Shown here piece after piece: positions 8,060 through 37,163 of a stretch of 64,000 nt of DNA (position 1 is its first letter; each line of letters starts with the position of its first letter). The DNA lies in assembly GCA_963709585.1 (NCBI GenBank), contig CAVPXI010000007.1, positions 192,001-256,000 of the forward strand, given 5' to 3'. Made by a program: the position numbers and the translations under genes. The notes beneath the pieces were generated by a model. The model made no database searches and was not told the DNA's origin. It was given only the letters and a program-made list of their open reading frames with translations. This DNA comes from Candidatus Dormiibacterota bacterium. Its GTDB lineage: Bacteria; Chloroflexota; Dormibacteria; Aeolococcales; Aeolococcaceae.

Positions 8060-8106
8060 ATCTCTTCCTCCGGCTCCCGATGATAGCGGCGTCCCCCCTG
8101 CTTGTG

Positions 8107-8328: not shown

Positions 8329-8440
8329 CGCCTTGCCTCCGTAGGTACTCACCGGTTCAGCCGGTGCTCACCCATCACGGCGCGAGGAAGACCCTGGCGA
8401 TGCGAGGCACCGCCGCGCGAGTTCGCCGCCGCCCTAGACC

Positions 8441-15222: not shown

Positions 15223-15367
15223 AGCGATCACTGCCGCCTTGTTTCTTGCACGCTGATGAGACCACACGGGCATGCGCGGACTATGTGACGTGTTTGCTCT
15301 GGTATAGGCGATTCGTACTTTGCTCTCCAGCAATGCGCAACGCTCACCTCAAAGGTCGGAAATTCAG

Positions 15368-17812
15368 ATGGCACACCGCGAAAAGCAAGGATCAGTCCGC
15401 GCAGCTGACGTCAATCTCGACGGCACCCGCGAGTACGGCACTGCTGCAGTTGCACCAGTCACCCCAATGGCTTTCACCAGCCTTGAGACGCCGCTGCCCG
15501 CAGCGAAAGTTCCTGTAGCTGTGGTGTCAGTCGATGACCCCGAGGTTCGGGTCAAGGCCGTCAGCCACGTCTGGATGCTGTATGCGGCCCTGGGGGCTGC
15601 AGCGATCCTGGTGTACTACCAGTTGCCCAAGGGCGGGGTTGCCCAGGGGATCCTGCTGACGGTTGCGAACGGGTCCGCGGTGGTCGCCGCGCTGCGTGCC
15701 GCGCTGCGCACCAGCCAGTTGAATCGACTTATCTGGATCGCACTGGCGGCGTCGATGGCGTTGTCGACTTTCGCAAATGGCCCCTACTATCTGTACCCGC
15801 ACATCAGCGGGCACGCGGTTCCCTTCCCGGGTCCGGTGGACATCCTGTGGTTGCTGACGTATCCGTGCTTTGTGGTGGCGCTGCTTGCCATCGGCAAGCA
15901 ACGGCAAGGTGGGCACCAAGGAGACCTGCTCGACGCCGCGATCATGACCATCGCCGGTGGAACCCTGATGTGGCTGTTTGTCATCGGTCCCAGCATCCGG
16001 GCGCCCGGTGAGTTCGTCTTTGAGCACATCGTGTCCGCCGCGTACCCGACGATGGATCTGATGGTCTTTGCCGTCCTGGTTCGCCTCTCACTTTCCGGCT
16101 TGAGCAAAAGCGGTGCGTCGCGCCTGCTGGTGGCGAGCTTTATCGCGCTCCTCGCCGCCGACATGGTCTACGCGCTCGGCATCCTCAACGGCACCTACGC
16201 GTTCGGCGGGCCAACCGACGGATTGTGGATGGCCTCCTACATGTTGATCGGCATCGCTGCGACACATCCATCAGCTCGCGCGTTCCCCCGGCTGCCGTCC
16301 ACGGCCCATGTCCAGGTGAACAAGAGCCGCCTGGGTTCCCTATGCCTGGCGGTGCTCGTCGGACCGTCGCTCCTGGTCTTCGACGGCAAGGACGTGGCCA
16401 TCGTCGCTGCGGCTTCGGGGCTCTCATTTCTGCTCGTCATGGCCCGCATGACCGGGCTCAACTGGAGCCTCGCTGCACTGGGAATCGAGCTGGAGGCACA
16501 AGCGACGACTGATGCACTCACCGGCCTGCTCAACCGGTCGGCATTCAACCATGCGATCGCCGCCGCGTTGAAAGATCACCACGAGCGAGTGGGCATGCTG
16601 ATGATCGATCTGGACGACTTCAAACGCGTCAACGATCTTGCAGGACACTCGTCAGGAGATGCCGTCCTCGTTGAAGTGGCGCAGCGCATGCGCAGCATCG
16701 GTCGTTCAACCGACGTCAGGGCGCGTCTGGGTGGCGACGAGTTCGCGGTGCTGGTCACCGGTCAGACCGACCCCACACGACTCGGAGAGCGCCTGATCGA
16801 AGCGCTGGCTGTCCGGTTCCTGGTTGGCGGACGCACCTTTTCCATCGGAGCCAGTGTCGGCTTCGTCATGGCCAGGGAGGGCATGGACCCAGAGCTCCTC
16901 ACCCAGGAGGCGGACATCGCGATGTACGCCGCCAAGGATCGAGGGAAGAACCGTCTGGTTGCATTCATGCCCTCGATGTACACGGATATCGTCGACGAGC
17001 AGGACTTCGCGCATGAACTCGAGGCTGCCCTCGACCGGAACGAGATCCGCTTGGAATATCAGCCGATCGTGCGGCTCGAGGACGAGGCGATAGTGGGCTA
17101 CGAGGCATTGGCGCGCTGGACACACCCTCGATTCGGTGAAGTTCCGCCGGATCGCTTCATCCCGGTTGCCGAAGTGTCAGGTGCGATCCTTCCGATCGGT
17201 CGATGGGTGCTCCGCACTGCACTGCACGATCTCACGCGGCTCGACGCGACGCGCGAGACCGGTCTGACAATGAATGTCAATGTGTCCGCGGTCCAATTGC
17301 TCGAGCCGGCGTTCGCATATGAGGTGGGGACGGCGCTGGAGAAGGCAGGAGTATCCGGCGAGCATCTGGTGCTCGAGATCACCGAGGGTGCGTTCGTCGA
17401 CGAGAAGAGCATCGCCGGCCAGCAGCTGCGCGATCTCCGCGCGCTCGGCATCCGGATCTCAGTCGACGACTTCGGCACGGGCTATTCGTCACTGGCGTAC
17501 CTCCAGCGACTGCCCGTCGAGGAGTTGAAGATCGCCCGCCTCTTTGTCGATGGGATCGACAAGGGACCCGCGGAGGGATCTGCAGCTCGCGCGATCATCC
17601 GGATGTGTGATGCCTTGAGCCTTCGGTGCATCGCTGAAGGCGTCGAGCGCGTAGAACAGATCGCCCCGCTTCGCGTGGCGGGTTGCGAGTTCGCTCAGGG
17701 ATTCCATTTTGGGCGGCCGATCCCCATCGAGCAGGTGCTGGAGTTGCGTCGACTGCGCCAGGCAGGAGAGGACGCCCACGGCGCCGACCTGCAGCTCGTT
17801 GGCGCTGCGTAA
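15368..17812 (+). CDS. Membrane-anchored GGDEF-EAL diguanylate cyclase/phosphodiesterase
   Basis: About 10 TM helices, DALTGLLNR, GGDEF, YEALARW, DDFGTGYSS. Start uncertain. Confidence 0.9.
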   Translation: MAHREKQGSVRAADVNLDGTREYGTAAVAPVTPMAFTSLETPLPAAKVPVAVVSVDDPEVRVKAVSHVWMLYAALGAAAILVYYQLPKGGVAQGILLTVANGSAVVAALRAALRTSQLNRLIWIALAASMALSTFANGPYYLYPHISGHAVPFPGPVDILWLLTYPCFVVALLAIGKQRQGGHQGDLLDAAIMTIAGGTLMWLFVIGPSIRAPGEFVFEHIVSAAYPTMDLMVFAVLVRLSLSGLSKSGASRLLVASFIALLAADMVYALGILNGTYAFGGPTDGLWMASYMLIGIAATHPSARAFPRLPSTAHVQVNKSRLGSLCLAVLVGPSLLVFDGKDVAIVAAASGLSFLLVMARMTGLNWSLAALGIELEAQATTDALTGLLNRSAFNHAIAAALKDHHERVGMLMIDLDDFKRVNDLAGHSSGDAVLVEVAQRMRSIGRSTDVRARLGGDEFAVLVTGQTDPTRLGERLIEALAVRFLVGGRTFSIGASVGFVMAREGMDPELLTQEADIAMYAAKDRGKNRLVAFMPSMYTDIVDEQDFAHELEAALDRNEIRLEYQPIVRLEDEAIVGYEALARWTHPRFGEVPPDRFIPVAEVSGAILPIGRWVLRTALHDLTRLDATRETGLTMNVNVSAVQLLEPAFAYEVGTALEKAGVSGEHLVLEITEGAFVDEKSIAGQQLRDLRALGIRISVDDFGTGYSSLAYLQRLPVEELKIARLFVDGIDKGPAEGSAARAIIRMCDALSLRCIAEGVERVEQIAPLRVAGCEFAQGFHFGRPIPIEQVLELRRLRQAGEDAHGADLQLVGAA

Positions 17813-17856: not shown

Positions 17857-19967
17857 CTATTCGACGCTGCCGAAAGCCTTGATCTCCTCGAGTTCTTGCG
17901 GCGACAGCTCACGGGGTTGATCGCCTTTCGCCACCTTCTCGGTCTGGACCTGGTGGCGGATGCTCTCGACGATCTCTGGATTTGCCAGCGTGGTCACATC
18001 GCCAACGTCGGTGAAGTTGGAGATCGAGGCGATCACCCGCCGCATGATCTTCCCGGACCGGGTCTTGGGCATGTCGGGAACGATCCACACGTTGTGCGGA
18101 CGGGCGATCTTCCCGATCTCACGCTCGATCGCATTGACGACCTTCTGCTTGATTTCGTCACTCGGTGGCACACCCGGTTTCAGCGCGATATACAGTTCCA
18201 CCGCTCGGCCGCGAAGCTCGTCGATGACCGGGACCGCTGCCGCTTCAGCGATCTCGTCGACCGTCAAGCACGCCGACTCAAGCTCCTTGGTCCCCAACCG
18301 GTGCCCTGCCACATTGATGACGTCGTCGACCCGACCAAGGATCCGGATGTAGCCATCCGCTGCCTGGACGGCGCCGTCACCCGCGAGGTACGGCCAGTCG
18401 CGCCAGTCCTTGCTCTCCGGGTCCCGGCAGTACTTCTTGAAGTAGGTGTCCACGAACCGCTCGGGTTGACCCCAGATCGTCTGAAAGATGCCCGGCCACG
18501 GGTTGCGGATGCAGATGTTGCCTGCGCGATTGCTCCCCGGCTCGACGACGTTGCGATCCTCGTCGTAGATCACGGGATAGATGCCGAGGACGCCAGGGCC
18601 GCAGCTGCCCGGTTTCATCTGGTCGAGTGCGGGAAGCGTGCTTCCAAGGAACCCGCCATTCTCGGTCTGCCACCACGTGTCGACAATCACCGCCTCGCCC
18701 TTGCCCACGACGCGGTGATACCAGCGCCACACCTCGGGTTCGATGGGCTCCCCGACCGTCGTCATGTGCTTGAAGTGGTAGTCGTACTTTGCCGGCTCAT
18801 CGGGGCCGAACTTACGAAGCATCCGGATGGTGGTGGGCGCGGTGTGGAAGATGTTCACCCCGAGGCGCTCCGCAATCCTCCACGGCCGGCCCGCGTCCGG
18901 ATAGAGCGGGACTCCCTCGTACATCACGCTCGTCGTTCCGAGCGACAACGGTCCGTACACGATGTACGAGTGTCCGGTGATCCAACCGATGTCAGCAAAA
19001 CACCAATACGTGTCTTCGGGATGGATGTCCTGGTAGTACTTTGAGGTACCGGTGACGTACGAGAGATAGCCACCCGTGCTGTGGACACAGCCCTTCGGGC
19101 GTCCGGTGGTACCGCTGGTGTACATCATGAAGAGCGGCGCTTCGGCCGGCATCGACACCGGCTCGACCATCTTGCCCGCGTAGTCCTTCATCAGCTCGTC
19201 GACGAAGAAGTCGCGACCTTCGACCATGGGAATCTCTGGAGCTGTACTGGCCGGGGTGGCGTCGCCAGACCAGTACCTTGTCCACCTCGAGACCCTGCTC
19301 GCGAGCCACCGCCACCGCTTCATCGGCCTTGGCCTTGTGGTCGATGAGTTCGCCGTTGCGGTAGTAACCATCCATGGTCACCAGGATGCGGCTCTCGGAG
19401 TCGGCCATACGGCCTCCACAGGCCGTCCCGCTGAACCCGCCGAACACCTGGTTGTGGATGACGCCGAGGCGGGCGCAGGCGAGCATCGAAACCGGGAGAT
19501 CCGGAACCATCGGCATATGAAAGGTGACGCGGTCGCCGACCTTCACGCCGCCGAAACCGCGCAGGAGCGCAGCAAACTCGTTGAACTCGTTTGTAGAGCT
19601 CCTGGTAGGTGATCGCCTTGGTCTCCTCGGCTTCAGGCTCGGGGACCCAAATCAGAGCCGCCTTGTTGCGGGACTTCGCAAGGTGACGGTCGACACAGTT
19701 GACACTTGCGTTGAGGCGACCACCGACGAACCACTTCCAAAACGGCGGATTGCTGGTGTCGAGCGTGGTGTGCCAGTACTTATCCCACGTGAGCAGGTCC
19801 GCGTACTCCTTGAAGCACTCCGGGAAGTTCTCCTCGCGGAACCGTTCGCGGATGCTCGGGTCGCTGGCATTCGCCTGTCCGATGAACTTCGGCGGCGGGG
19901 CGAAGTAATCCTCCTCGCGCCAGTGCACCGCGATCTGGGCTTCCGTGACCTGCACTTCCACTGCCAT
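17857..19967 (-). CDS. acs: Acetate--CoA ligase with two frameshifts (about 19585 and 19235)
   Basis: YTSGTTGRPKG, DTWWQTE and PKTRSGKIMRR. Three consecutive frames assemble a full-length Acs; GGAGG RBS. Confidence 0.9.
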
Positions 19968-20031
19968 TGGTCGACCTCCGAATACTCGCTGGACCCCCTC
20001 GCCACCGTTCCGAGATGAACGCCCCCGACTC

Positions 20032-20319
20032 TTAGCCCTCTGCAAGCAGCCTTGCAGAGACGGCGAACTCGCGAAGCTCAGCAGCCATCGTCGCCTGGGA
20101 GGCCAGGGCCTGGAGGTCACCTCGCGCAAGAGAGTCCCGGCAGAGCCCGCGGAGCAGATGGAGGGCCTGCAGGGCCAAGGTCGGCAGCATTTCAAAGGGC
20201 GCTGTCTCGGTCGCTGCGCGCAGCCGCGCGAACTCGAACGCGGACTTCTGGCTCGGAGCGATGGCCTCCAGTTGCACCAGCCGAACCGATAGCTCCCCGA
20301 TGATGTACTGCTCGGTCAT
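20032..20319 (-). CDS. Hypothetical helical protein
   Basis: MTEQYIIGELSVRL... ORF filling the gap between the EAL gene and acs, co-oriented with both. Confidence 0.55.
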   Translation of the reverse strand: MTEQYIIGELSVRLVQLEAIAPSQKSAFEFARLRAATETAPFEMLPTLALQALHLLRGLCRDSLARGDLQALASQATMAAELREFAVSARLLAEG

Positions 20320-20440: not shown

Positions 20441-23071
20441 TCAGCGAGCCCCAGGTGCTGGGGTCGCCGCCACCGCCGCAAACGCCATCGATGTGGTCGG
20501 CACCGCGACGTTGTGCGTGAGCAGCCTGCGCATCGCCAGCGGCGACAGCGGTTGCCCAAAGAGAAATCCCTGAGCCAGCTCGCACCCGAGATCGTTGAGC
20601 TCGCGGAGACACTCCTCGGTTTCGACGCCTTCGGCGATCACGCTCAGGCCGAGACCGACGCCGAAGTTGAACACGGAATGCGCAAAGCCGATCGACTTGA
20701 TGGGGCCGCAGAGCGAGGCCGTGAACGACCTGTCGATCTTCAGCACATCCACTGGGAAGTCCTGAAGCCTGCTCAGCGATGAATGCCCGGTCCCGAAATC
20801 GTCGAGCGCGATGCGCACGCCCAGTTCGCGAAGCGCATTGAGGCAGCCGATGATCGGCTCGGTGTCATAGATGATGTCCGCCTCGGTGACCTCGAGGATC
20901 AAGCGGCGCGCGTCGAGCCCGGTGTCCTGCAGGACGCTGCGGACGCTCTCGGCGAAGTCCGGCTCACGCAGCTGGCGCACGGCGACGTTCACGCTCACCG
21001 AGACCGGGTCGGCGCCGGCGACCTCCGGCCAGCCCTGCGCCTCTTCGCAGGCGCTGTGCAGGACCCATGCCCCGAGCTGTGTGATCAGTCCGGTCTCCTC
21101 CACCAGGCTGATGAAGTCGTCCGGCAGCACGGTCCCGCGAGTGGGATGTCGCCAGCGCAGCAGCGCTTCCGCGGCGACGATCGAGCAGGTCGAGACGCGC
21201 ACGATCGGTTGATACACCAGCTCGAATTCGACGGACTCCACGGCGTGGTAGAGATCGGCCTTGAGCCGGTGCCGGCGCTGCACCGCGGCATACATCGCAG
21301 GCTCGAACAGCTCCCAGCGCGACTTACCCGAACTCTTTGCGGTGTAGAGGGCGAGGTCGGCGTTCTGGAGCAGCTCCTGGCCGTCGCAGCCCGTGTCCAC
21401 AGCCGTTGCGATGCCGATGCTCGCGTGGGTCAGCACCTCCTCGGTGGCGATGATGAAGGGCTCGCGCAGTGCCTCGATCACCCGCTCGGCGATGCGTACC
21501 GCCGCCGCAGGGGCGTCGATTCCGATGAGCAGGACGGCAAACTCGTCACCCCCCAGCCGGGCGGCGACATCGCCGGGACGCAGGCACTGCCCGATTCTGT
21601 CGGCGATGGCCCGGAGGAGCTCATCGCCAGCAGCGTGACCGAGGCTGTCGTTGACCGTCTTGAAGTCATCGATGTCGATGAACAGCACGCCCACGTGCTG
21701 CCCGGTCTGCGCCAGCGCCTGCTCGACTCGGGAGCCGAAGAGCAGCCGGTTCGCCATCCCGGTCAACGGATCGTGCGACGCCTCATGGCGTAGCTGTTCC
21801 TGGAGCACGGTGAGCTGCGACAGCGAGTGCTGCAGCCTTCCCCGTTCGAGGATGACGCCGGTCTGATTGGCGAGCATCTCGAGCAGACGCAGATCCTCGT
21901 CATCGAATCCGGTGACCTCACCGAGGCGGTTGGCGATGAGCATGGTTCCCACCATGTTGTTCTCACCGCGCAACACCACGGCCATGGCATCGCGCAGCCC
22001 GCGCCGTTCCAGGAATCCGCTGGGATCGCTGTCGGCCTTGCCGTGGGCGCTCAGCAACAGCGGCGAGTTGATGAGGAGCCTGCTCATGAACTGCAGTTCC
22101 GCGTCGTCGAGGATGACGGGCGTCATGAACTGTGTCGTCTGCTCCTTGTCAAACGCCGTCCGCACGACAGCATCGCGTTCACGTGTGGGGAGGAAAGTGA
22201 TCTCCGCACGCTCCGCACGGAAGACCTCGCACGACTTTCGCAGCAACGCTGCAACGGCGTCATCGACGACTGCGGTGCGCTGCAGGTCCTTGCTCGACTG
22301 GTAGAGGAAGTCGACCTGATCGCGCTTCTCACGTTCGGCGACATAGAAGCGGTAGGCGATGAAGACGCCGAATGTCGGGATCGCGAGCAGCCAGATTTCG
22401 GCCGGATTCTCCCAGACGATGCGCACCCCGATCAGGGCAAGACAGGTGTTGACGACCGTGGCCGCCTGCGCGAACCCGAAGGTCGATGCGATACCGGCAC
22501 GATCGATACGCCCCTCGGAGAAGGAAATTGCGGCGAGGATCACCAGTGACTGGATCACCCCGCCGGCAAGAATCGCCACCAACACGCCGGCGAAGCTGAT
22601 CACGCTCAGTGGGTTCGTGTGATCGACGAGGTGCGTGAACAGCACCGCGACGACGCTGTTGGCGACCGTGAAATTGGCCAGGTTGAAGGCCACCTTCAAC
22701 GGCGACTGGCGGCGATGGATCGACAATGCGAAGGCGGTCCCGGCGACCATCGAGAGCACCACGACCAATGGCGGCGCGAAGAAGAATCCAACGACCAGCG
22801 GCAGCTCACTGAGCGAGAAGGAGTGAGCGTCGCGGCGGAACTGGATGTGGACCACGAACACCTCGGCCGCACAGAAGAGCGGGATGAGCATCCACCAGGG
22901 GGTCTGGCGCGGCGCCGGAAGTCCGTGAAGCCGGGCCACCACCTCGACCAGGAGGACCACGGCGGTCGCCGCGAGCACCAACGTCAGAAGGTGGACTCGG
23001 TGTCCCCTTCGAGCCGATGCCCCGTGTCCGGGATCGCCCGCAGATGCGGCGTCCTCGACCTCCTTGGCCAT
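20441..23071 (-). CDS. Membrane sensor + GAF + GGDEF-EAL protein
   Basis: About 7 TM helices (AEVFVVHIQFRRDAHSFSLSELP), GAF-like region, GGDEF, AEALLRW, DDFGTG. Confidence 0.9.
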   Translation of the reverse strand: MAKEVEDAASAGDPGHGASARRGHRVHLLTLVLAATAVVLLVEVVARLHGLPAPRQTPWWMLIPLFCAAEVFVVHIQFRRDAHSFSLSELPLVVGFFFAPPLVVVLSMVAGTAFALSIHRRQSPLKVAFNLANFTVANSVVAVLFTHLVDHTNPLSVISFAGVLVAILAGGVIQSLVILAAISFSEGRIDRAGIASTFGFAQAATVVNTCLALIGVRIVWENPAEIWLLAIPTFGVFIAYRFYVAEREKRDQVDFLYQSSKDLQRTAVVDDAVAALLRKSCEVFRAERAEITFLPTRERDAVVRTAFDKEQTTQFMTPVILDDAELQFMSRLLINSPLLLSAHGKADSDPSGFLERRGLRDAMAVVLRGENNMVGTMLIANRLGEVTGFDDEDLRLLEMLANQTGVILERGRLQHSLSQLTVLQEQLRHEASHDPLTGMANRLLFGSRVEQALAQTGQHVGVLFIDIDDFKTVNDSLGHAAGDELLRAIADRIGQCLRPGDVAARLGGDEFAVLLIGIDAPAAAVRIAERVIEALREPFIIATEEVLTHASIGIATAVDTGCDGQELLQNADLALYTAKSSGKSRWELFEPAMYAAVQRRHRLKADLYHAVESVEFELVYQPIVRVSTCSIVAAEALLRWRHPTRGTVLPDDFISLVEETGLITQLGAWVLHSACEEAQGWPEVAGADPVSVSVNVAVRQLREPDFAESVRSVLQDTGLDARRLILEVTEADIIYDTEPIIGCLNALRELGVRIALDDFGTGHSSLSRLQDFPVDVLKIDRSFTASLCGPIKSIGFAHSVFNFGVGLGLSVIAEGVETEECLRELNDLGCELAQGFLFGQPLSPLAMRRLLTHNVAVPTTSMAFAAVAATPAPGAR

Positions 23072-23209
23072 GCCCGAATCGTGCGTGACCTCAGGGTGAG
23101 CCGAACTCGCCGTGCCAGTCCTGTTGCCAAGCGGTAGCAGAGCTATCGGCGGTGCTGGCATCGGCTCGGAGAGGCGATGCCGACCAAGGGCACGACCATG
23201 GTCGCGGAC

Positions 23210-24973
23210 CTAAGTCCAGTCGTCTTCGGACCAGTTCGAAGCCGACCAGGATGCACCTGACCAGGACGCACCGGACCACGAGGCCCCAGACCATGAGGCG
23301 CCGGACCACGAGGCGCCAGACCAAGAGGCTCCCGACCATGAAGCCCCGGACCACGAGGCACCCGACCAGGAGGCGCCCGACCACGAAGATCCCGACCACG
23401 AGGAGCCGGACCACGACGAGCCGTTAAAGATCCCGCCGTTCCACGCGGAGGCATTCGCTTCGGACGAAGCCAGTGCCGACGTGCTCACCGCGTTGCCGAA
23501 GATGTCCCGCTCGCCGGTGAGCGCGTTGCCGTTGGCGTCGACGACGTGCTGTGAGCCACGCGATGCCTCGAGGCTGCCGGTGCCACTCGAGGTGGGCCAG
23601 GTCTGCGTGACGTTCGGTGTCGGCGCGTTGAGTACGGCGGCGAGGTTCAGCTCACCGCTGCCCTTGAGGGAGGTCGGGCCGTACATCGAGTGGGTGTGCC
23701 CGACCAGCAGTGCCTTCACCTGATCGGGACTGAGTGCGGGCCGCTGGCTGAGCAGGAGCGCCGCCGCGCCCGAGACGACGGCGGCTGCCTGCGACGAGCC
23801 GCTCCCGAGGAAGAAGCGGTTGCTCACACTTGCGGTGGCGCCGAATTGATCGTCGATGAACGATCCCGGATCCCGCAGAGAGACGACGTGGACGCCGGGC
23901 GCGGAGAGGTCGGGATTGCGTGTGCCGTCACCCTCGCTCGTGAAGCCCGCGGGGAAGTGATAGCGGACGGAGGTCGTGTTGTTGGTGTTCGACGCACCGA
24001 CGGCGATGACGTAGGGATCGATCGCCGGGTCGTCGAGGCCGTTGGAGTCGTTGCCCTGGTTGCCCGCTGCCACGACTACGACGATGCCGTGCAGCCAAGC
24101 CTGCTCGGCCGCGTAGGCGAGCGGATCGAGGACGTAGCTCTGTGGGCTGTCGGTGCCGTAGGAGAGATTAAGGACACCGATGTTCATGCCGTTGTCGTTC
24201 TGGTGCTGCACCACCCAGTCAATGGCGGCGAGCACCTGCGAGACATCGGTCTGGCCCGTCGCGTCGGCGACCTTCACGTTGACGATCTGCGCGTTCGGTG
24301 CCATGCCGAGGAAATGTGTGGAGTCGCTCGAGCTCACCGACGTCGCCTCGCTGTCGCGGCCGGCGATGATCCCCGCCATGTGCGTGCCGTGACCGAAGGT
24401 GTCGAGATACTCGAGCGACGGGTACTGCGATTCAAAGGAGAGATCGGGGCCGTTGACCACCTTTCCTGGGGTGCTCAGGCCGTTGACAGGGGACACGCCG
24501 GAGTCGATCAAGGCAACGCCAACTCCCTGCCCGGTATACCCCGCGTTCCAGTACGCATGGGCTCCGTCCATCTGCTCGATGTTGTACATGGAGTTGACGT
24601 CGGCCACGGGGTTGTACTGCGCGCCGGGCAGACCGTACGAGGAGCCGAGGAGTTGAACCGGGGCGTTGAGGGTGACCTGCGCGACGGCCGCCGAGGCGTT
24701 GAGCTCTGGGACGGAGTTCGCCGGGACCTCCGCGACGACGGCGTTGATCAGACTGATGTGCTGCTGGATATGGCCGCCAAGCGACGTGACCTGCTGATCC
24801 GCGGCGGCGCCCTGTCCGGGCTGCGCACGCACGATCACCGAGACGAGGTGCGCGCTGGCGTGGGCGGTGGTGGTCAGCGCGCCGGCGCTCAGGAGGACAG
24901 CAACGGCAGCCACCATCGCGCCCACCGTGCGGCGTTTGCGATCGTCCCAGCTGATGCCGTGTACCGGATCCAT
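23210..24973 (-). CDS. Secreted S8 (subtilisin-like) serine protease with C-terminal G(A/S)SWS repeats
   Basis: Signal peptide (AHA), I9-like prodomain, triad IDSG / HGTHMAG / GSSQA, oxyanion motif AAGN. Confidence 0.92.
   Translation of the reverse strand: MDPVHGISWDDRKRRTVGAMVAAVAVLLSAGALTTTAHASAHLVSVIVRAQPGQGAAADQQVTSLGGHIQQHISLINAVVAEVPANSVPELNASAAVAQVTLNAPVQLLGSSYGLPGAQYNPVADVNSMYNIEQMDGAHAYWNAGYTGQGVGVALIDSGVSPVNGLSTPGKVVNGPDLSFESQYPSLEYLDTFGHGTHMAGIIAGRDSEATSVSSSDSTHFLGMAPNAQIVNVKVADATGQTDVSQVLAAIDWVVQHQNDNGMNIGVLNLSYGTDSPQSYVLDPLAYAAEQAWLHGIVVVVAAGNQGNDSNGLDDPAIDPYVIAVGASNTNNTTSVRYHFPAGFTSEGDGTRNPDLSAPGVHVVSLRDPGSFIDDQFGATASVSNRFFLGSGSSQAAAVVSGAAALLLSQRPALSPDQVKALLVGHTHSMYGPTSLKGSGELNLAAVLNAPTPNVTQTWPTSSGTGSLEASRGSQHVVDANGNALTGERDIFGNAVSTSALASSEANASAWNGGIFNGSSWSGSSWSGSSWSGASWSGASWSGASWSGASWSGASWSGASWSGASWSGASWSGASWSASNWSEDDWT
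23243..23422 (-). repeat. 12 x 15-nt coding tandem repeat (3 GSSWS + 9 GASWS)
   Basis: Parsed from the DNA: 180 nt with invariant Trp codons and varying synonymous Gly/Ala/Ser codons. Confidence 0.95.
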
Positions 24974-25184
24974 CCCCTGTCAATCCCCCTACTCGTGCCG
25001 ACTTTGCGGCACCGTTCTCCCGCCTCTGATTCCCTGAGGTGAAGGCTAAGCGGGCTCTGCATCGTCGAATCCGCCCGCCATCGTTCTGCGACGCGGTGAT
25101 CCGATTTCGCCTGCGCAGATCCGATGTCGCCACGGGGCGGGGACGGGACGGCGAGGGACACCCCCGCCCTCGAGCGGGTACTCG

Positions 25185-27524
25185 CTAGACGGCGAGGACG
25201 ACGGGCGTCGCTGTCCGCATCCCGAGCTGGGCATGCAGATAGCGGCTCAGCTCCCTGGCCGGCAGTGGACGCGCGAAGTGGTACCCCTGCCCCAGGCGAC
25301 AGTGCAGGCGCACCAGCTCGTCGACCTGCTGGGGATGTTCGATCCCCTCGGCAACGATGTCGAGGTTCATCGTCCTCCCCAGCTCGATGATCCCGCGCGC
25401 GAGGTTGGCCTTCTCCGAGCCGGACGCGATGTCGTCGATGAAGGACTTGTCCACCTTGAGCACATCGATGGGGAAGTTGCGCAGGTGGCTGAGCGACGAG
25501 TAGCCCGTGCCGAAGTCGTCGAGGGCGATCCGTGCGCCGAGGGCGCGGAGCTCGGACAAACGCGCGCTCGTCGTGGTGGTGTCGTGCATCAGCGCGGTTT
25601 CGGTGATCTCCAGGGTCAGGTGTGCGGCGTCGAACCCGGTGGCGTCGAGCGCTTCGACCACCTGGGCGACGACGTCCGGTTGCTGGAGCTGGCGCGCCGA
25701 GAGGTTGATGCTCAGGTGCAACGCCGCGGCGTTGGGATGTGTCTGCTGCCATTCGCGCACATCGCGCATCGACGTGTGCATGACCATGCGACCGATCTGC
25801 ATGATCAAGCCCATGTCCTCCGCCACCGGAATGAACTCCGCAGGCGGCACCCACACGCCGTCGTCACGGTGCCAGCGAACCAACGCCTCGACGCCGACGG
25901 CCTCCCCGGACGCGAGCCACACAATCGGCTGGTAGTGCACCTCGAACTCCTCGAGCTGCACGGCCCGGCGCAATTTCCCTTCCAGGTGCGCTCGATCTGA
26001 CACGACCGCGTGCATGTCGGCCTCGTAGATCATGTGCTTGCCGAAGCCTTCGAGCTTGGCGCGATACATGGCCAGATCCGCATTGCGCAGCAGCGCATCG
26101 GCACCCGTGGCACCGGCATGGTCGACCACGACGCCGATGCTCGCCGTCACCGCCAGGTCATGGCCACCGATCTCGAACGGGTCGCGAAGCGTGTCGCTGA
26201 TCGCCTCGGCGAGGACCTCGGCACCCGCAGTCGAGGTGTTCTCGGCGAGCACTGCGAACTCGTCACCACCCAGGCGCGCCGCCAGGTCGGCGTCGCGCAG
26301 CGATGCGCGCAGCCGCTTGGCCACTGCCTCGAGCAGGCGGTCGCCCACGGTATGGCCGAGGCTGTCGTTGACCAGCTTGAAGCGGTCGAGGTCGAGGTAG
26401 AGGACCGCCAGGCTCGAGCCGACGCGGCTCGCGTTGGCCACAGCGCGAGCGAGGTGCTCGAAGAACAGCAAGCGGTTCGGCAGACCGGTGAGCGCGTCGT
26501 GATATGCGAGGTGACGCATCTGATCGACGGCCTTGGCGTCGTTCAGGGCGATGCTGGCGTGATGCGCGAGCGCGACCAGGGTCTCGCGCTCGGACTCGGT
26601 GTACGTGCGGTCGGGCAGGTACGTGGCCACGGTGATGCTGCCCACAGGCTTGCCGTTCTCATGGATGGGCGCGGCCAGGGCACTTTGCAAACGCGCGACG
26701 ACGAACTCCTCGACTGCCCCGTCGTCGTGCTGGTAGTTGTCGAGAACGACCACGCGATCCTCGACGATCGCCCGTCCCCCGGCGCCTTCTGAGACCAGCG
26801 CCCGCTTGGTGGCGGCCAGCACCGTGTGGGATATGCCCGCCGAGGACACGATGTTCATGTACCGAGGGTCGTCGCGGTCCACCAGGCGCAGGCCGACAAC
26901 CTCATCGCCGAGCAGCGCCTGCGCGCCTTCGACGACAGCATCGAGCACCTCCGGGAGCGGGGCGCGCTGCGCGATGGAGACCTGGATCCTGGCGAGTTGC
27001 TCCAAGACCGTCTGACGTTCCTGGAGCAGGCGTACGAGCCGGACGTTCTCCTGTGCGCGCAGTTCGCCCTCGGCGCGCAGGGCGCGTTCCTCCTCGAGCA
27101 TGCGCAGGGTCCGGAGCGTCATCGACAAGCTACGCCCCATCGCGCGCAGCAACCCGGTTTCCTCCGCCTGGAATCCGTCGCGCCCGGAGCGCGCCAGGAC
27201 CAGGTGACCGCCGATCTCCTCGATCGGGACGCTGATCGATCGGAGCTCACCGACACGGGGAAGACGAAGAAGGTGGGTCGACTCGCGTCCGGCCGCGAGC
27301 AGTGCAGCCACCGGTACCTGGTCCCTGGGGAAGCCGATCATCTTCACGACCGCCTCGTCGGTGACCACGGCAGCCACCTCCGCCTCCAACACCTCGGCAG
27401 CCCACTGCATCGCGCAGAGCATCGCCGCCGGCGGATCCGGACTGGCCGCAACCGCAACCAGAAATTCGGCCAGCTGTTGCGTGGACCAGCTGCTCGGCGG
27501 CGTGGTGATGTCGGACCTGCTCAT
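25185..27524 (-). CDS. Cytoplasmic GAF-GAF-GGDEF-EAL protein
   Basis: ATG 4 nt after the FIST stop; two GAF-like segments, DALTGLPNR, GGDEF, VEALVRW. Confidence 0.9.
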   Translation of the reverse strand: MSRSDITTPPSSWSTQQLAEFLVAVAASPDPPAAMLCAMQWAAEVLEAEVAAVVTDEAVVKMIGFPRDQVPVAALLAAGRESTHLLRLPRVGELRSISVPIEEIGGHLVLARSGRDGFQAEETGLLRAMGRSLSMTLRTLRMLEEERALRAEGELRAQENVRLVRLLQERQTVLEQLARIQVSIAQRAPLPEVLDAVVEGAQALLGDEVVGLRLVDRDDPRYMNIVSSAGISHTVLAATKRALVSEGAGGRAIVEDRVVVLDNYQHDDGAVEEFVVARLQSALAAPIHENGKPVGSITVATYLPDRTYTESERETLVALAHHASIALNDAKAVDQMRHLAYHDALTGLPNRLLFFEHLARAVANASRVGSSLAVLYLDLDRFKLVNDSLGHTVGDRLLEAVAKRLRASLRDADLAARLGGDEFAVLAENTSTAGAEVLAEAISDTLRDPFEIGGHDLAVTASIGVVVDHAGATGADALLRNADLAMYRAKLEGFGKHMIYEADMHAVVSDRAHLEGKLRRAVQLEEFEVHYQPIVWLASGEAVGVEALVRWHRDDGVWVPPAEFIPVAEDMGLIMQIGRMVMHTSMRDVREWQQTHPNAAALHLSINLSARQLQQPDVVAQVVEALDATGFDAAHLTLEITETALMHDTTTTSARLSELRALGARIALDDFGTGYSSLSHLRNFPIDVLKVDKSFIDDIASGSEKANLARGIIELGRTMNLDIVAEGIEHPQQVDELVRLHCRLGQGYHFARPLPARELSRYLHAQLGMRTATPVVLAV

Positions 27525-27528
27525 GCCA

Positions 27529-28736
27529 TCAGCCGAAGGCGAGCACCACCAGCGTCTGATTGTGGAATCCGCTGACGCCGCGAGTGCGCGCAATCTCGCC
27601 GTAGGTGTAGAAGCCGGCAACCGGCGACCCCTGCGAGAACGACCTGATCCGATCGACCTCCTTGCGAATCCCCGTGTCACCGAGAACACCGCGCCGCGCG
27701 ATGCAGTCGAACGCGAGGAAACCAAGCGGCGCGTGTCCCGACAGCCCGTCGACCGCCTGCGAGCAGGCGGTCGCGGTGGCTTGCAGGACCGAATCGGCGT
27801 CGCCCTCCATGATCCATGCCAGGCCGCCCTGTGGAACCTCAGCGATGCAGCCGATGGAGCGGTCGTCGAAATTCGCCTCGGCGATGAAGCGCACCTCCTC
27901 ACCGCTGCGCCTGGCGGAGACCGAACGGATGGGTGAGCGCGAAACGCGTGAACGCCGCGGGGTCGGTGCGCACATCCTCGGGAGCCTCGAGGCGTTCGAG
28001 GTAGACGTCGAGCGCCGGACGGTCGTCGAGCGCGAACACACGAGTTCCCGCTGCTCGAGGTCACCAGGAACGGCGCGCCGACGCGACCCCAGCCATGCTG
28101 GACGCCGATGCCGAAGGGTGCATCGGACGTGATCGCCGCGGCAAGGACGGAATCTTCGAGCACCTCGTCGTCGAAGAGCTGGAAGGTCTTGCGCATGGCG
28201 AGGTCGTCGCCCGCGCAGCCACCGACAAGCGGCACCGACCCGCCGACGACGCTGTAGGCGCCGCGCACCACCTCCTGCTGGTCGCCACCAAGGCCGTCGG
28301 TGAGGAGCAGGAGGATCTGGTTGTCGCCCGCAGCTCCGTTCTCGGCGCAGGTCGCGGCTGTCGCTCCAGCCCGGCGCAGGTCGCTCGAGGCATTGCGTGC
28401 GGCCTTGGTCGTCACCGAGTAGCCGGCGCCACCGATCGCGGTGACGACCACGCTGGCGTCGCTGGGGCCGTCGGTTGCGATCTCGCCAGCGGTGGAGCAG
28501 CCGATCAGCGGGGTGGCGGGCGCGACGCTGCGAATGCCGGTGAGCAGTGCCTGGAGATCGTGGACGGGGGAGACGAAGACGACGAGGAGCTTGGGATCGG
28601 GGCCTCGAAGCGCCGCGGTGGCGGCTTCAATGCCGGCCTGGCGCGAGGCCGTGTCGGTGGAAGAGCCGACGCCGATCCAGCGGTCGTCAGCGCTTGATTC
28701 GGCCGGCTCCACGACCGGTGCGGTGATTGTTTCCAT
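27529..28736 (-). CDS. FIST N/C (NosP-like) sensor protein with two frameshifts (about 28045 and 27918)
   Basis: LIGCSTAGEI, PLVGGCAGD, FDCIARR, GFYTYGEI, FHNQT; GGAGG RBS. Confidence 0.88.
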
Positions 28737-28978
28737 GGGGCGGACACCTCCAATCAGCGAAACCAGGCGCGGGGACTGTGCGGCCGATCCGAGGCGGGGT
28801 CGCCGTTCGGTGCCCACCCTACGGGGTGGTGGGTGCGATCGAGGCGCTGTTTACCGATCGTGACGGAAAGATTGCACGGCCTACCGCAATTCCGATGCAG
28901 ACCCGACTTCCCAATGCGTTGCTACCATTCGCGGCCGACGGAGCGTCAATCGAGCTCTGGCGAAATGGGAGCACAGAC

Positions 28979-29726: not shown

Positions 29727-32058
29727 TCAGGCAACCGCTGTGTCGGACTGCGTGCCAGCTTCGAACCCAGACGGTGAGAGGGCAAGGTCCTGTGCGGACA
29801 TCGGCTGGCCGATAAAGTAGCCTTGCGCTAGATCGCATCCAATCGCGGTGAGGAGGTTGAGTGCGTCAAGGTCCTCAATGCCCTCCGCAACCACGCGCAT
29901 GTTCAACTTGTGGCCCAGGGCGATGGTCGCTCGAACCAGGGCCAGATTTCGCTCCGTGTCCCCAGTGGCCAACCGTGTCAGGAAACTGCGGTCGAGCTTC
30001 AATTCGCTAACGGCCAGACTGCCCAGGTAGGCGAGCGACGTGACTCCGGCACCGAAGTCGTCGATCGAGACACCCAATCCGAGGTTCCGCAGCTGCTCAA
30101 TGACGACCTTACAGAGGTCGAAGTCTCTGATGATGGTGGTCTCGGTAATCTCGAGGATTAGTGACGAGGGAGCCATCTCATGGCGCGCGAGAGTGGCGAT
30201 CACGGACTCGCTGAATCCAGCATCGAGCAGGTTTGTCGCCGAAACATTGACGGAGATGGTCAACATCTCACCGGCGGCGTGCCAGGCAGCACATTGTTGA
30301 ACTGCCCGCTCAAGGACGAACGCGGTCAGCGATTGCATGAGCCCGGCTTCCTCGGCGAGAGGAATGAAGTCGAGTGGCGGGATGAGTCCCAGTCGCGGAT
30401 GCGGCCAGCGCACCAATGCTTCCATCGCTGACATCTTTCCGGTGATCAGATCGATCTGCGGCTGGTAGTGCACCTCAAGGTGACCACGGAGAATGGCTTC
30501 GCGCAACTCATCCACGAGGCGCAACCGGTTGCCGTCTTCATCGACGTCGTGCCGGTACACCTCGTAGGTCGATGGGCCGACCTTGGCGCGATACATGGCG
30601 AGATCAGCGCAACGTAGCAGTTCAATGCTATCGGTCGCATCTGTGGGTGCAGTGGCGATGCCGATGCTGGCACCGACGCGAACATTGAGCCGGTCGAGCT
30701 CAAAGGGCTGGTCAAGCTCGGCGATGAGGCGCTGTGCGACCGCCGCAGCATATTCGGAGTCGGTGTCCATGATGAGCACCGCCAATTCATCGCCACCAAC
30801 CCGCACCAGGACATCTGAATCGCGCAGGCGACTGATCAGGCGCGGACCCAGCTGCCTGAGGACTTCGTCGCCGGCTGAGTGCCCGAATGAATCATTGATT
30901 TCTTTGAAATGGTCCAGGTCGACATAGAGCAGGGACAAGCAGGCGGTCAACTGTGTCGGGGTTGGCGTAGTCGGCGAAGAAGGCGTCGAGAAGATTGAAA
31001 AGCTGCCTACGATTGCCCAATCCAGTCAACTCATCAGTAATCGCCTGACGGTGGCGCTTCTCGGTCAGGATTCTCAGCCCGCGCACAGAGAGCGCCAGTC
31101 GAACCCCGACTGCGATCAAGGTCGCTGTGGCAAGTCCAATGGCGACCGGGGTGACCTGCTGATGCAGCGTGTCGACCAACAGTATGGACAGGCCAGCGCA
31201 TGCACCGAGACCCGGGAGCAGAAATCCAGCGGTCCCACTGGTCGCCAATGGGCTGGTTCGCAGGGGACGCACCCAAACTGCACTCGAGATGAGCAAGATC
31301 GCGCATGGCCAGGCGATTCCATTGAGGATCGTCCCTACATGCGACGTCGATCCCGAGCTCGCAAAGAGATTGAAGGTATCGCCGATCGCGGTCAGGCTGA
31401 TGGCGCCGGCAAGCAGCAGCCACTGTGGATTCTTTCGTCCCGGCATGATCGCCGTGCCTCCGACCGCGAGCATGAGCAGTAGACCGTCACCGATCGGATA
31501 CGCAAGATCGGTCGCGACGGTTGTGGCGTTGCCGCCGACGGAATGGAGGATCGTGTTGAAGGCGAAGCAGGCGCACAATGCGGCGGCGCCCAGGCCTGCC
31601 ACAGCCCCGTCGAGCCATGTTGTTAGTCCCATTCGGTTGAGATGCTTGCGCGTGAGCAGTACCAGCGCGACGTATATCAGGGGGTAGAACCCCAACCAGA
31701 ACAGATCGGCGAGTGACGGAACAGGAGGTGTGCCTCCCCCCGCTGACTCAGCTGTAAGGACCGTGTCCCCGATGCTCCAAGAAAGTATCCCGAAACCCAG
31801 CATGAGCGGGACGATTCGGCGACGGGAGCTGAGCGCGCGACCGATACATAGTGCGCTCGCCGCTACCTCGAAGGCGGCGACGCCCCAGCCATCGACAAGT
31901 GTCACCGACTGATTGGGTCCCCTCAGAATCAGCGAGACGAAATAGACGAAGAGCAGTACCCCTAACGCGGCGTAGAGGCCGAGCACCCAACGCGGGACGC
32001 GACCAGCGGACGCGGCAATGCTTGCAGCTCGAAGCCGAGGATGCGCAGCGGACACCAC
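29727..32058 (-). CDS. Membrane-anchored GGDE(L)-EAL protein with a frameshift near 30940
   Basis: Multi-TM N-terminus and DELTGLGNRR, then a second frame with GGDEL, MEALVRW and DDFG. Confidence 0.85.
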
Positions 32059-36532: not shown

Positions 36533-37163
36533 ATCCTTGGCGATGCGTTGTGCCTAACGCCCCCACATCCGGTTACTAAAGGTGGCGAAGCGAGGTACGA
36601 ACAACCCGAGATTTGCAGCCGCTTCAGAACTCCCACCCGTGCCCGTAGAGCAGATGAGCTATTGAGCGTCGAGAAGAAGCTCTCCGCGGCGACGTCGTCC
36701 CAGCCGTTGCTCTTTCAGCCCGGCACCTTCGACGGTTGCCGTCCGAGAGGACCTCACCAATGACGGCCGGGTGATGCGCCAAGGCCGACGTCGATACCCG
36801 ATCGAGCCGACCCGCTTCAGAGGGTTGTCGCGTGAGTGTGACGAGCGCCTCTGGCAAATGCGAATGCCCTGGCGAGCTATGGCGATGTTGGGCACAAGTC
36901 ACGCACGGTCGCTCAGTGGTCACGAAAGTTCAAACGATGAGATACCTGGCACTCCAAAGGTCAGGGACGGAGAGATTCTGTGACCAGTCAGATGAAACCG
37001 AGATTGAAAGGGGACGCGCACATGGCTCCCGAACGCGCCGCCTCGACCCTGAACCCAGGAGGCGGTTTGCGGGAGTTGACCCGTTTCTTCGCGCACGTCT
37101 CGACGTTCCGAATCCACGACAAGTCGACCGCGCTGCGGGTCGTCTGAACCCGAGCGCAGCGTC

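What the first reader, a model, noticed from the sequence alone, without database searches (positions are those of the whole stretch)
20441..28736. Candidate signalling cassette: Trp-pentapeptide-repeat subtilisin between two c-di-GMP enzymes, headed by a FIST sensor
Seen: four co-oriented genes, FIST > GAF-GAF-GGDEF-EAL > secreted S8 protease with a G(A/S)SWS tail > membrane GAF-GGDEF-EAL. All catalytic motifs look intact. Established: GGDEF/EAL domains make and break c-di-GMP, and FIST/NosP proteins are ligand sensors. Inference: the protease may supply a signal (released Trp peptides or a self-assembling tail) that the adjacent membrane receptor reads, coupling extracellular proteolysis to c-di-GMP. 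I know of no characterised system with this architecture, but I cannot search the literature.
Basis: partly seen in the sequence, partly recalled or inferred. Interest (0 to 1): 0.85.

Follow-up and report, generated by a model that had tools for sequence, protein, structure and literature searches.

The report
Trp-tailed subtilase paired with membrane sensor
A secreted protease that ends in a string of tryptophan-containing five-residue repeats is encoded directly in front of a membrane-embedded signalling enzyme in many soil bacteria of two phyla, which points to an undescribed protease-plus-sensor signalling pair whose mechanism is still untested.

Summary
The four minus-strand genes exist, but only two form a unit. 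The conserved unit is the S8 subtilase (23210-24973) with a (G[A/S]SWS)n tail, followed 48 nt later by an 8-helix membrane GAF-GGDEF-EAL gene (20441-23161).

- **Linkage:** the pair is adjacent in 33 of 33 genomes of the genus. It is adjacent at 39 of 45 assessable places in 12 other genera of this Dormibacteria family. It also occurs in Actinomycetota MAGs.
- **Paralogous pairs:** several genomes carry 2-3 pairs, and protease and sensor trees agree on who pairs with whom.
- **Output varies:** in some Acidimicrobiia the same membrane+GAF module ends in a histidine kinase. The protease therefore goes with the sensor's input side, not with c-di-GMP as such.
- **Tail:** it is under amino-acid-level selection; nine identical units use nine different DNA spellings.
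- **FIST and the first GAF-GGDEF-EAL gene:** these are a separate, movable neighbour. FIST carries two 1-base frameshifts in the window that independent contigs lack.

Whether released Trp peptides, a tethered tail or mere co-expression links the pair is not shown. No paper describing it was found. This scan noted the same pair twice before on other DNA (e1-1510756, e1-5136068).

The parts
23210..24973 (-). S8 subtilase gene (587 aa). It comprises a signal-like N-terminus, a pro-region with beta-alpha-beta-beta-alpha-beta pattern, a catalytic domain, a conserved pre-repeat region and a Trp-pentapeptide tail.
   Evidence: ORF and translation. Peptidase_S8 at 134 bits against a cut-off of 21.8. 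Conserved H195, S394, N305 and D157. AF2 secondary structure.
23696..24532 (-). S8 catalytic domain (aa 148-426)
   Evidence: Pfam PF00082 stretch. Nearest solved chain is 3afg_A, E 3.7e-32, covering aa 139-428 only.
23423..23611 (-). Conserved pre-repeat region (aa 455-517: GTGSLEASRG...LTGE.DIFG...AWNGG.FNG). It is deleted in some same-genus relatives that keep the tail.
   Evidence: Alignment consensus. pLDDT 64-82. Deleted forms in L023, L024, L026, L027.
23213..23422 (-). Trp-pentapeptide tail: 3 x GSSWS, 9 x GASWS, ASNWS, EDDWT; Trp is the penultimate residue of the protein.
   Evidence: Unit table and synonymous spellings. TRF period 15. Pfam Pentapeptide 19.7 bits against a cut-off of 20.2. 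AF2 pLDDT 21-31.
23162..23209 (-). 48-nt spacer between the S8 stop and the sensor start; no terminator-like site was found here.
   Evidence: Sequence. Scan: (a consensus scan, which is weak evidence).
20441..23161 (-). Partner gene (906 aa): polytopic membrane domain, then GAF, GGDEF and EAL.
   Evidence: Orthologue follows S8 in 17 of 17 same-genus loci.
22322..22999 (-). Membrane sensor domain (aa 55-280). It has about 8 helices, short loops and conserved polar residues (E100, E119, N160, N238 of the protein). It is possibly a distant MASE9 relative.
   Evidence: Hydropathy. Alignment invariants. AF2 helices. No Pfam hit. Atlas MASE9-like clusters at 0.91-0.93.
21842..22267 (-). GAF domain of the partner (aa 299-440)
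   Evidence: Pfam.
21320..21781 (-). GGDEF domain (aa 461-614); motif RLGGDEF, with RPGD five residues upstream.
20549..21256 (-). EAL domain (aa 636-871); EALLR, DDFGTG and EGVE present.
25185..27524 (-). Neighbouring, separate gene: cytoplasmic GAF-GGDEF-EAL enzyme (779 aa from ATG 27524). Not part of the conserved pair.
   Evidence: Present upstream of S8 in 2 of 17 same-genus loci.
27529..28736 (-). Neighbouring FIST gene. Its stop lies 4 nt before the start of the gene above. In the window it is broken by two 1-base shifts near 28045 and 27912.
   Evidence: Contigs without the extra bases. Intact relatives.

Best explanation
**The unit.** The functional unit is a two-gene module, not the four-gene cassette. 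Gene 1 is an exported subtilisin-family (S8) protease. Its C-terminus is an array of about 9-30 near-identical five-residue units built around one tryptophan (W-[S/A/T]-G-x-x). Gene 2, directly downstream on the same strand, is a membrane-embedded sensor. It has about 8 helices and almost no extracytoplasmic loops, and may be MASE9-like. A GAF domain follows, then an exchangeable cytoplasmic output: a GGDEF-EAL pair here, a histidine kinase in some relatives.

**Proposed working (inferred).**
1. The protease is secreted and matures outside the cell.
2. Its uncharged Trp-rich tail, or the W-ending pentapeptides cut from it, sits at or in the outer leaflet of the membrane.
3. That tail or its fragments is what the membrane domain of the partner reads.
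4. The state or amount of the extracellular protease thereby sets synthesis versus breakdown of c-di-GMP inside the cell.

**Shown:** gene anatomy, conserved adjacency, co-diversification, output swapping, and amino-acid-level selection on the tail.

**Inferred:** export, the outside-in direction, and the tail (or its fragments) as the ligand.

FIST plus the first GAF-GGDEF-EAL gene are a second, independent c-di-GMP module that happens to lie next door.
For: **1. Adjacency**
- 17 of 17 fetched same-genus loci have the sensor orthologue right after S8.
- Coordinates (my manual cross-tabulation) give 33 of 33 in the genus.
- In other genera of the family: 39 adjacent on the same strand, 2 convergent within about 3 kb, 4 without a sensor, and 12 not assessable (contig ends or unlisted rows).
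- 19 of 22 further fetched loci were confirmed by domain-wise tblastn. The 3 exceptions had been picked as exceptions.

**2. Beyond the family**
- A degenerate DNA pattern for the tail found S8+tail followed by TM-GAF-GGDEF-EAL in L052, L061, L101 and L110 (Actinomycetota MAGs) and L054.
- It also found tails at contig starts followed by the sensor in L068 and L105.
- In a sample of 201 genomes of the class of L052, 18 tail loci were fetched. 6 have TM...GGDEF-EAL, 2 have TM-GAF-HisKA-HATPase on the same strand, and 1 has it divergently.

**3. Chance is low**
- The genome has 29 GGDEF hits and 3 S8 hits in 3.5 Mb.

**4. Pairs stay together after duplication**
- G204 and G478 have 3 pairs each; G463, G487 and G455 have 2.
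- Protease and sensor trees share the clades.
- Mantel r is 0.652, reached by 0 of 5000 permutations.
- The observed neighbour pairing ranks 1st of 48 possible within-genome assignments.

**5. No third partner**
- Only these two genes are shared among the flanks of 18 diverse loci.

**6. Tail under selection**
- 9 identical GASWS units are written in 9 different DNA versions, with a mean of 3.0 synonymous differences per 15 nt.
- Each tail is dominated by one unit, and units differ between paralogous pairs of one genome.

**7. Direction**
- GGDEF and EAL motifs are intact.
- The output is replaced by a kinase in relatives.
- This fits an output domain downstream of a conserved input, not a second-messenger receptor.

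**8. Literature on a related domain**
- Passages of bioRxiv 10.1101/2021.11.05.467447 propose that MASE9, a possibly related domain, binds its ligand within the membrane.
Against: - No experiment, and no expression data: no RNA run was found.
- S8+tail genes without a sensor exist. Examples are L036 and L037 (the next gene is a threonyl-tRNA synthetase), L086 and L112/L113, and 9 of 18 loci in the Acidimicrobiia-class sample, including tandem arrays of 2-3 S8 genes. The tail therefore has a role that does not need the sensor.
- The sensor's outward loops are tiny.
- The repeat unit tracks the sensor better than its own protease domain (partial r 0.38; reached by 1 of 5000 and by 5 of 3000 permutations). 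It tracks GAF and GGDEF about as well as the membrane domain: partial r(unit, TM | GAF) is 0.15, reached by 316 of 3000 permutations. This is not evidence for a tail-membrane-domain contact and may only reflect shared descent.
- Related genomes are not independent, and operons duplicate as units by default.
- AF2 gives no confident structure for the tail.
- One sensor (L030) lacks EAL, and one same-genus sensor (G024) groups with another clade.
Confidence: 0.5

Rival explanations
1. Co-expression only. The protease is an ordinary secreted, nutritional or matrix-remodelling enzyme. The sensor gene merely shares its operon, so that both are made under the same conditions. The tail is a surface-retention or stability element with no signalling role.
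For: - Sensor-less S8+tail genes and tandem S8 arrays exist.
- Segmental duplication keeps neighbours together without any interaction.
- The co-variation is not specific to the membrane domain.
Against: - Adjacency is kept at sensor identities down to 27-40% and across two phyla.
- The membrane+GAF part is kept while the output is swapped, which is what is expected if the conserved link is to the input domain.
- No other gene is co-conserved.
Confidence: 0.22
2. Inside-out control, as in LapD/LapG. The membrane protein senses cytoplasmic c-di-GMP, or a ligand through GAF, and holds or releases the protease at the cell surface through its tail.
For: - Gene order of protease next to a membrane GGDEF-EAL protein resembles lapG-lapD (recalled).
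- A weak NCBIfam LapD match of 157 bits.
Against: - The LapD model cut-off is 1020 bits.
- GGDEF and EAL motifs are intact, not degenerate.
- There is no periplasmic domain.
- Relatives carry a histidine kinase instead of GGDEF-EAL, which does not fit a c-di-GMP receptor.
- The nearest solved GGDEF-EAL chains are annotated as enzymes (5m3c, 4rnh; E 1e-97 to 1e-99), against LapD-type 3pjw at 9e-33.
Confidence: 0.08
3. The tail folds as a pentapeptide-repeat beta-helix with Trp at the central position. It serves as a structural module (binding wall, polymer or DNA-like surfaces), not as a ligand or a peptide source.
For: - The unit A-S-W-S-G mirrors the A-[D/N]-L-S-G register of pentapeptide repeats (register recalled).
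- Pfam PF00805 gives E 6.4e-4, 19.7 bits.
- Strict 5-residue spacing of the aromatic residue starts already at W511/F516.
- An earlier scan note (e1-1510756) reads it this way.
Against: - The score is below the Pfam cut-off of 20.2.
- AF2 gives pLDDT 21-31 and no strands for 521-587 (the alignment was shallow, 35 close sequences).
- Units such as WSNNS, WSGGG and WSGKS depart from the register.
Confidence: 0.15
4. One reading: FIST senses a ligand and heads one operon in which two c-di-GMP enzymes flank and use the protease.
For: - All four genes are co-oriented.
- The FIST stop lies 4 nt from the next start.
- The same order is seen in the window, G504, G007 and G011.
Against: - FIST and the first enzyme are upstream of S8 in only 2 of 17 loci.
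- FIST is found in 16 of 42 genus genomes, 5 of which lack S8. In G004 and G436 it lies downstream of the sensor, and in G003 and G509 elsewhere.
- A 211-nt gap separates the first enzyme from S8.
- G008 has other genes directly upstream of S8.
Confidence: 0.05

Closest known systems
LapD/LapG of Pseudomonas fluorescens (membrane c-di-GMP receptor controlling a periplasmic protease; recalled, not read here)
   Same: Neighbouring genes for an exported protease and an inner-membrane GGDEF-EAL protein. Proteolysis outside the cell is coupled to c-di-GMP inside.
   Different: - LapG is a cysteine protease, and LapD has degenerate GGDEF/EAL plus a periplasmic domain (recalled).
- Here the protease is S8 with a Trp-repeat tail and the motifs are intact.
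- There is no periplasmic domain.
- The NCBIfam LapD score is 157 against a cut-off of 1020.
- The output can be a histidine kinase.
Phr/Rap-type peptide signalling in Bacillus, with pro-peptides cut by subtilisin, Epr and Vpr, including tandemly duplicated pro-peptides (PMC11343458 and PMC3601957: search listing and abstracts only)
   Same: S8 proteases make short (penta- to hexapeptide) signals outside the cell. Repeats in the precursor can give several peptides.
   Different: - There the precursor is a separate small protein and the receptor is cytoplasmic after import.
- Here the repeats are fused to the protease itself and the conserved partner is a membrane sensor.
- No release of peptides has been shown here.
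Polytopic peptide-pheromone receptors of Gram-positive bacteria (AgrC/ComD type; recalled)
   Same: A multi-helix membrane sensor with very short outer loops, encoded beside the gene that supplies its signal. Variants form specificity groups.
   Different: - Those receptors are histidine kinases of another family, and their peptides come from dedicated small precursors.
- Here the membrane domain is unrelated in Pfam terms and is mostly coupled to GGDEF-EAL.
MASE9 membrane sensor domain (Pfam PF20972; bioRxiv 10.1101/2021.11.05.467447, passages read)
   Same: An integral membrane sensor found with HD-GYP and GGDEF-EAL outputs. It has a short intramembrane hairpin, polar or charged residues in the membrane core and poorly conserved outer loops.
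   Different: - The window's domain gives no PF20972 hit even at E 10.
- A relative's domain (L061) reaches only 17.7 bits against a cut-off of 24.3.
- The likeness otherwise rests on language-model features at 0.91-0.93.
Pentapeptide repeat proteins (Pfam PF00805)
   Same: Five-residue period with a small residue at -2 and a large hydrophobic residue at the centre.
   Different: - Trp takes the place of Leu/Phe.
- The score is just under the cut-off.
- No confident beta-helix was predicted.
Tk-SP-like subtilases (3afg_A, nearest solved chain)
   Same: The catalytic domain aligns over aa 139-428, E 3.7e-32.
   Different: No solved chain covers aa 450-587, the pre-repeat region and tail.
FIST/NosP sensors beside c-di-GMP enzymes (for the neighbouring gene only)
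   Same: FIST_N and FIST_C are both above the Pfam cut-offs, and the gene directly precedes a GGDEF-EAL gene.
   Different: - The NosP equivalog model scores 71 bits against a cut-off of 450.
- The gene is not linked to the S8 pair.

Membership tests
Peptidase S8 (subtilases) | Family profile match over the catalytic domain | tested here: met
   PF00082 at 134.2 bits against a cut-off of 21.8, aa 148-426.
Peptidase S8 (subtilases) | Asp-His-Ser triad in that order, plus the oxyanion Asn | tested here: met
   D157 (DSG), H195 (HGTH), N305 and S394 (GSSQA). H195, N305 and S394 are invariant and D157 is at least 90% conserved in 35 sequences.
Type VII secretion mycosin (TIGR03921) | Equivalog model score above cut-off | tested here: not met
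   136.2 bits against a cut-off of 278.75.
Pentapeptide repeat family (PF00805) | Profile score above the gathering cut-off | tested here: not met
   19.7 bits against 20.2, E 6.4e-4, on aa 442-587.
Pentapeptide repeat family (PF00805) | Right-handed quadrilateral beta-helix fold | tested here: inconclusive
   AF2 gives pLDDT 21-31 and no strands for aa 521-587; the alignment was shallow.
GGDEF diguanylate cyclases | Profile match and an intact GG[D/E]EF active-site motif | tested here: met
   PF00990 at 153 bits; RLGGDEF at aa 537, with RPGD five residues upstream. Enzyme activity was not tested.
EAL phosphodiesterases | Profile match with the EAL, DDFGTG and EGVE motifs | tested here: met
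   PF00563 at 228.6 bits; EALLR at 665, DDFGTG at 787, EGVE at 844. Activity was not tested.
LapD-type c-di-GMP receptor | Equivalog model score | tested here: not met
   NF045673 at 157.2 bits against a cut-off of 1020.
LapD-type c-di-GMP receptor | Degenerate GGDEF/EAL motifs and a periplasmic protease-binding domain (features recalled) | tested here: not met
   The motifs are intact. Loops between membrane helices are 13 residues or fewer.
MASE9 (PF20972) | Profile score above cut-off | tested here: not met
   No hit for the window's domain at E up to 10. L061's domain scores 17.7 bits against 24.3. Atlas features of 0.91-0.93 to clusters where 11-24% of members carry MASE9 are a lead only.
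FIST domain proteins (neighbouring gene) | FIST_N and FIST_C profile matches | tested here: met
   FIST_N at 145.9 bits and FIST_C at 76.2 bits, but in different frames of the window. Independent contigs remove both shifts.
NosP (NF041558) | Equivalog score above cut-off | tested here: not met
   71.1 bits against a cut-off of 450.
Peptide quorum-sensing systems (Phr/Rap, Agr) | A released mature peptide and a receptor that responds to it | not testable with these tools
   Needs secretome mass spectrometry and activity assays.

The most novel reading that the evidence does not exclude
The protease is a self-contained pheromone factory.
- Its tail is a polyprotein of identical pentapeptides, each ending in Trp.
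- The S8 domain cuts them off. Cleavage after a large hydrophobic residue fits general subtilisin preference (recalled).
- The uncharged Trp peptides partition into the membrane and are read inside the bilayer by the partner's MASE9-like domain.
- Paralogous pairs with different units (GSTWS, GQSWS and NNSWS in one genome) are private signalling channels.
- Sensor-less tailed proteases add signal to a channel. The sensor-less G204 C7 gene has the same GQSWS unit as the paired G204 C10 gene.
Probability: 0.15. Interest if true: 0.9.

Novelty: new variant of a known kind. Interest (0 to 1): 0.7.

Why it matters
Very few membrane-embedded sensor domains of c-di-GMP enzymes and kinases have a known input. 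This case offers a candidate input that is genetically encoded next door. It is easy to manipulate through tail length, unit sequence and the catalytic serine. It occurs in two phyla that are common in soil and largely uncultured.

If the protease or its tail is the signal, three things would follow:
- a new way of coupling extracellular proteolysis to second-messenger and two-component signalling;
- a first ligand class for a MASE-type domain;
- an account of a striking, strongly selected Trp repeat that no family model describes.

If it is only co-expression, the Trp tail still marks an undescribed C-terminal module of secreted subtilases.

Tried and rejected
- **Complex prediction** of the sensor's membrane domain with the S8 C-terminal region: verdict 'no answer', score 0.00. 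It is not used either way.
- **AF2 of the whole S8**: the tail came out at low confidence, so no fold claim is made.
- **AF2 of the sensor, aa 51-620**: used only for the helix count. No fold search was run, because the GAF and GGDEF parts would dominate it.
- **Promoter and terminator scan**: 0 promoters and 1 terminator-like site inside the sensor gene, fewer than in shuffles. Uninformative.
- **Partial Mantel test for repeat-receptor co-variation**: positive against the protease domain but not specific to the membrane domain. It is rejected as evidence of contact.
- **Apparent S8-sensor fusion frame in L032** (1538 aa): the end of the tail reads as shifted (...SGSCCSAERIAWWW). It is treated as a frameshift, not a natural fusion.
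- **Full-length S8 tblastn missed L028**; the catalytic-domain query found it.
- **Own-genome search for other Trp-repeat proteins**: only the S8 tail is in a real long frame.
- **Literature searches** found no paper describing the pair or the tail: 'Dormibacterota'+'c-di-GMP' gave 0, 'Dormibacterota'+'subtilisin' gave 0, and the listings of the other two held nothing relevant. Subscription journals are not covered.
- **The search of earlier findings by place**: nothing.

Full report
**What is in the window**

The region 20441-28817 carries long minus-strand frames.

- Pfam places FIST_N, GAF, GGDEF and EAL in a 1210-aa frame (25185-28817).
- It places Peptidase_S8 in 23210-24973.
- It places GAF, GGDEF and EAL in 20441-23161.

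The 1210-aa frame is not one gene. Its middle is Arg-rich nonsense. FIST_C is found in another frame (27529-28041), and about 45 codons that read like FIST lie in the third frame. The FIST stop (27529-27531) lies 4 nt before an ATG (27524) that starts a 779-aa GAF-GGDEF-EAL protein.

Contigs from independent sequencing runs lack one base at 28045 (run X1, depth 16). They lack one base at 27912 in runs X1, X3 and X5, which come from two studies. These are exactly the two shift points. X1 may be the source sample, so it is not independent support. Relatives have intact FIST frames of 404-526 aa.

Other genes in the window also look shifted. An acetyl-CoA synthetase is split at about 19320-19371, and a membrane GGDEF-EAL gene is split at about 30892-30950. 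I therefore read the FIST breaks as assembly indels or strain variants, not as a decayed gene.

**The protease**

The protease has 587 aa. Its parts are:

- a basic-then-hydrophobic N-terminus ending in AHA|SA;
- a predicted beta-alpha-beta-beta-alpha-beta pro-region;
- the D157/H195/S394 triad with N305;
- a conserved pre-repeat region;
- a tail of 3 GSSWS + 9 GASWS + ASNWS + EDDWT.

The nine GASWS units are written in nine different DNA versions. They differ at a mean of 3.0 of 15 positions, all synonymous. The array is therefore old and held by selection on the peptide, not by recent slippage.

Pfam's Pentapeptide model scores the tail just below its cut-off (19.7 against 20.2 bits). AF2 gives it pLDDT 21-31. 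In this genome no other real frame carries such a repeat.

**The partner**

The partner has 906 aa. It has about 8 membrane helices with loops of 13 residues or fewer. It has no Pfam match for that part. GAF follows, then GGDEF and EAL with intact motifs.

The membrane part keeps polar residues within or near the bilayer, while the outward loops vary. Language-model features put it near clusters that partly carry MASE9 (0.91-0.93). A relative's copy gives a sub-threshold MASE9 hit.

The authors of MASE9 proposed ligand binding within the membrane (bioRxiv 10.1101/2021.11.05.467447; passages read).

**Which genes belong together**

The organism is a Dormibacteria MAG, going by the names that sources give to near-identical proteins and by the record title of L076.

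*Within the genus*

- In 17 fetched loci of the genus, the sensor orthologue (82-90% identity; 55% in one case) follows S8 in 17 of 17.
- FIST plus the first GGDEF-EAL gene lie upstream in only 2 of 17.
- FIST is present in 16 of 42 genus genomes.
- 5 of those 16 lack S8, and FIST sits at varying positions relative to S8.

*Across the family (117 genomes)*

- S8 is found in 73 genomes and the membrane domain in 104, at about 4 copies per genome. These tallies include three genomes flagged unpublished, which I did not otherwise use.
- Comparing the coordinates by hand gives 33 of 33 adjacent in the genus.
- Elsewhere there are 39 adjacent places, 2 convergent nearby, 4 without a sensor and 12 not assessable.
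- The 9 genus genomes without S8 also lack the sensor orthologue; their best hits are paralogue-level. Since the genes are neighbours, this is not independent evidence.
- Domain-wise tblastn on 22 further loci confirmed 19 pairs. The other three had been chosen as exceptions.
- Only these two genes are shared by the flanks of 18 diverse loci.

**Paralogous pairs**

Some genomes hold two or three pairs (G204, G478, G463, G487, G455). Trees of the protease domain and of the sensor share the main clades.

The Mantel r is 0.652, reached by 0 of 5000 permutations. Among the 48 ways of assigning partners within those genomes, the observed neighbours rank first.

There are discordances. G024's sensor groups with another clade, and G463 C47 is placed differently in the two trees.

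**Beyond the family**

- A strict tail pattern hit 7 of 401 genomes sampled from the GTDB-style phylum. Six were in this family, and one (G354) was a single hit that reads W-C-G-G-S rather than a tail unit.
Most single hits were other frames or other repeats.
- Among them, S8+tail was followed by the sensor in L052, L061, L101 and L110 (Actinomycetota MAGs), in L054 and in L076 (= G204).
- Tails at contig starts were followed by the sensor in L068 and L105.
- S8+tail without a sensor was seen in L086 and L112/L113.

In 201 genomes of the class of L052, 33 matched the pattern. I fetched 18 tail loci:

- 6 have TM...GGDEF-EAL;
- 2 have the same membrane+GAF module ending in HisKA-HATPase on the same strand;
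- 1 has that module divergently;
- 9 have no sensor, among them tandem arrays of two or three tailed S8 genes.

This confirms, for kinases, an earlier scan note that outputs vary. I did not look for phosphatase outputs.

**Reading**

- The conserved link is between the tailed protease and the membrane+GAF input part of the sensor. The output is exchangeable and here looks catalytically competent.
- That favours outside-in signalling over a LapD-like inside-out receptor. The LapD model scores 157 against a cut-off of 1020, and the nearest solved relatives are annotated as enzymes.
- Tails are internally uniform, differ between paralogous pairs and nearly always end with Trp as the penultimate residue.
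- The repeat unit follows the sensor's divergence better than that of its own protease domain. It follows GAF and GGDEF as well as the membrane domain, so I do not count this as contact evidence.
- Sensor-less tailed proteases show that the tail also works without the sensor.

I therefore commit, at about 0.5, to a protease-plus-sensor input module. Within it, the tail or peptides cut from it is the most likely thing read. Plain co-expression is the main rival.

**Novelty**

Four full-text searches found no description of the pair or the tail. NCBIfam and Pfam have no model for the tail or the membrane domain.

The scan itself noted the same pair twice before on other genomes (e1-1510756, e1-5136068). 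Those are unchecked AI notes, not independent evidence.

Noticed in passing
window 27900-28050: Two 1-base insertions relative to independent contigs (at 27912 with two adjacent substitutions, and at 28045) break the FIST gene into three frames. They create a false 1210-aa ORF.
   Followed up: yes
window 17857-20195 (-): An acetyl-CoA synthetase-like gene appears split. ACAS_N lies in 19320-20195, and AMP-binding (from profile position 152) lies in the overlapping frame 17857-19371. This is probably another indel in the assembly.
   Followed up: no
window 29727-32058 (-): A 388-aa membrane-like frame overlaps the start of a GGDEF(partial)-EAL frame (30892-30950). It is likely one shifted gene. 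With 15320-17812 (+) this makes four GGDEF-EAL genes within 17 kb. In G008 these two frames lie directly upstream of S8.
   Followed up: partly
window 32420-42557: A cluster of large surface-type proteins: two IPT/TIG proteins (671 and 594 aa; the second also gave a weak S8 profile hit) and a 1797-aa protein with 17 Big_3_5 repeats.
   Followed up: no
L210, L211, L213, L112/L113: In some Acidimicrobiia MAGs, two or three tailed S8 genes stand in tandem (units WSGST/WSGAT, ends ...WTGLTW) without a sensor nearby. In L210 an ABC exporter-type gene lies about 2.5 kb downstream.
   Followed up: partly
L036 (G204 C7) and L034 (G204 C10): The sensor-less tailed S8 of G204 has the same GQSWS unit as one of the three paired S8 genes in that genome.
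   Followed up: no
L047, L048, L052, L068, L206, L207: A C-W-C motif (for example WAGSCWCG) sits at the start of the tail in one clade that spans Dormibacteria and Actinomycetota MAGs. It may form a disulfide.
   Followed up: no
L032 (G455 C130) 389-5005: S8 and the sensor read as one 1538-aa frame, because the end of the tail is shifted and the stop is lost. This is probably an assembly error rather than a natural fusion.
   Followed up: partly
L030 (G204 C16) 7145-8857: This partner ends after GGDEF and has no EAL domain.
   Followed up: no
G006:C1:89866-90465: A 415-aa frame in a genome without the S8 gene gave weak matches to the Trp tail. It was not examined.
   Followed up: no
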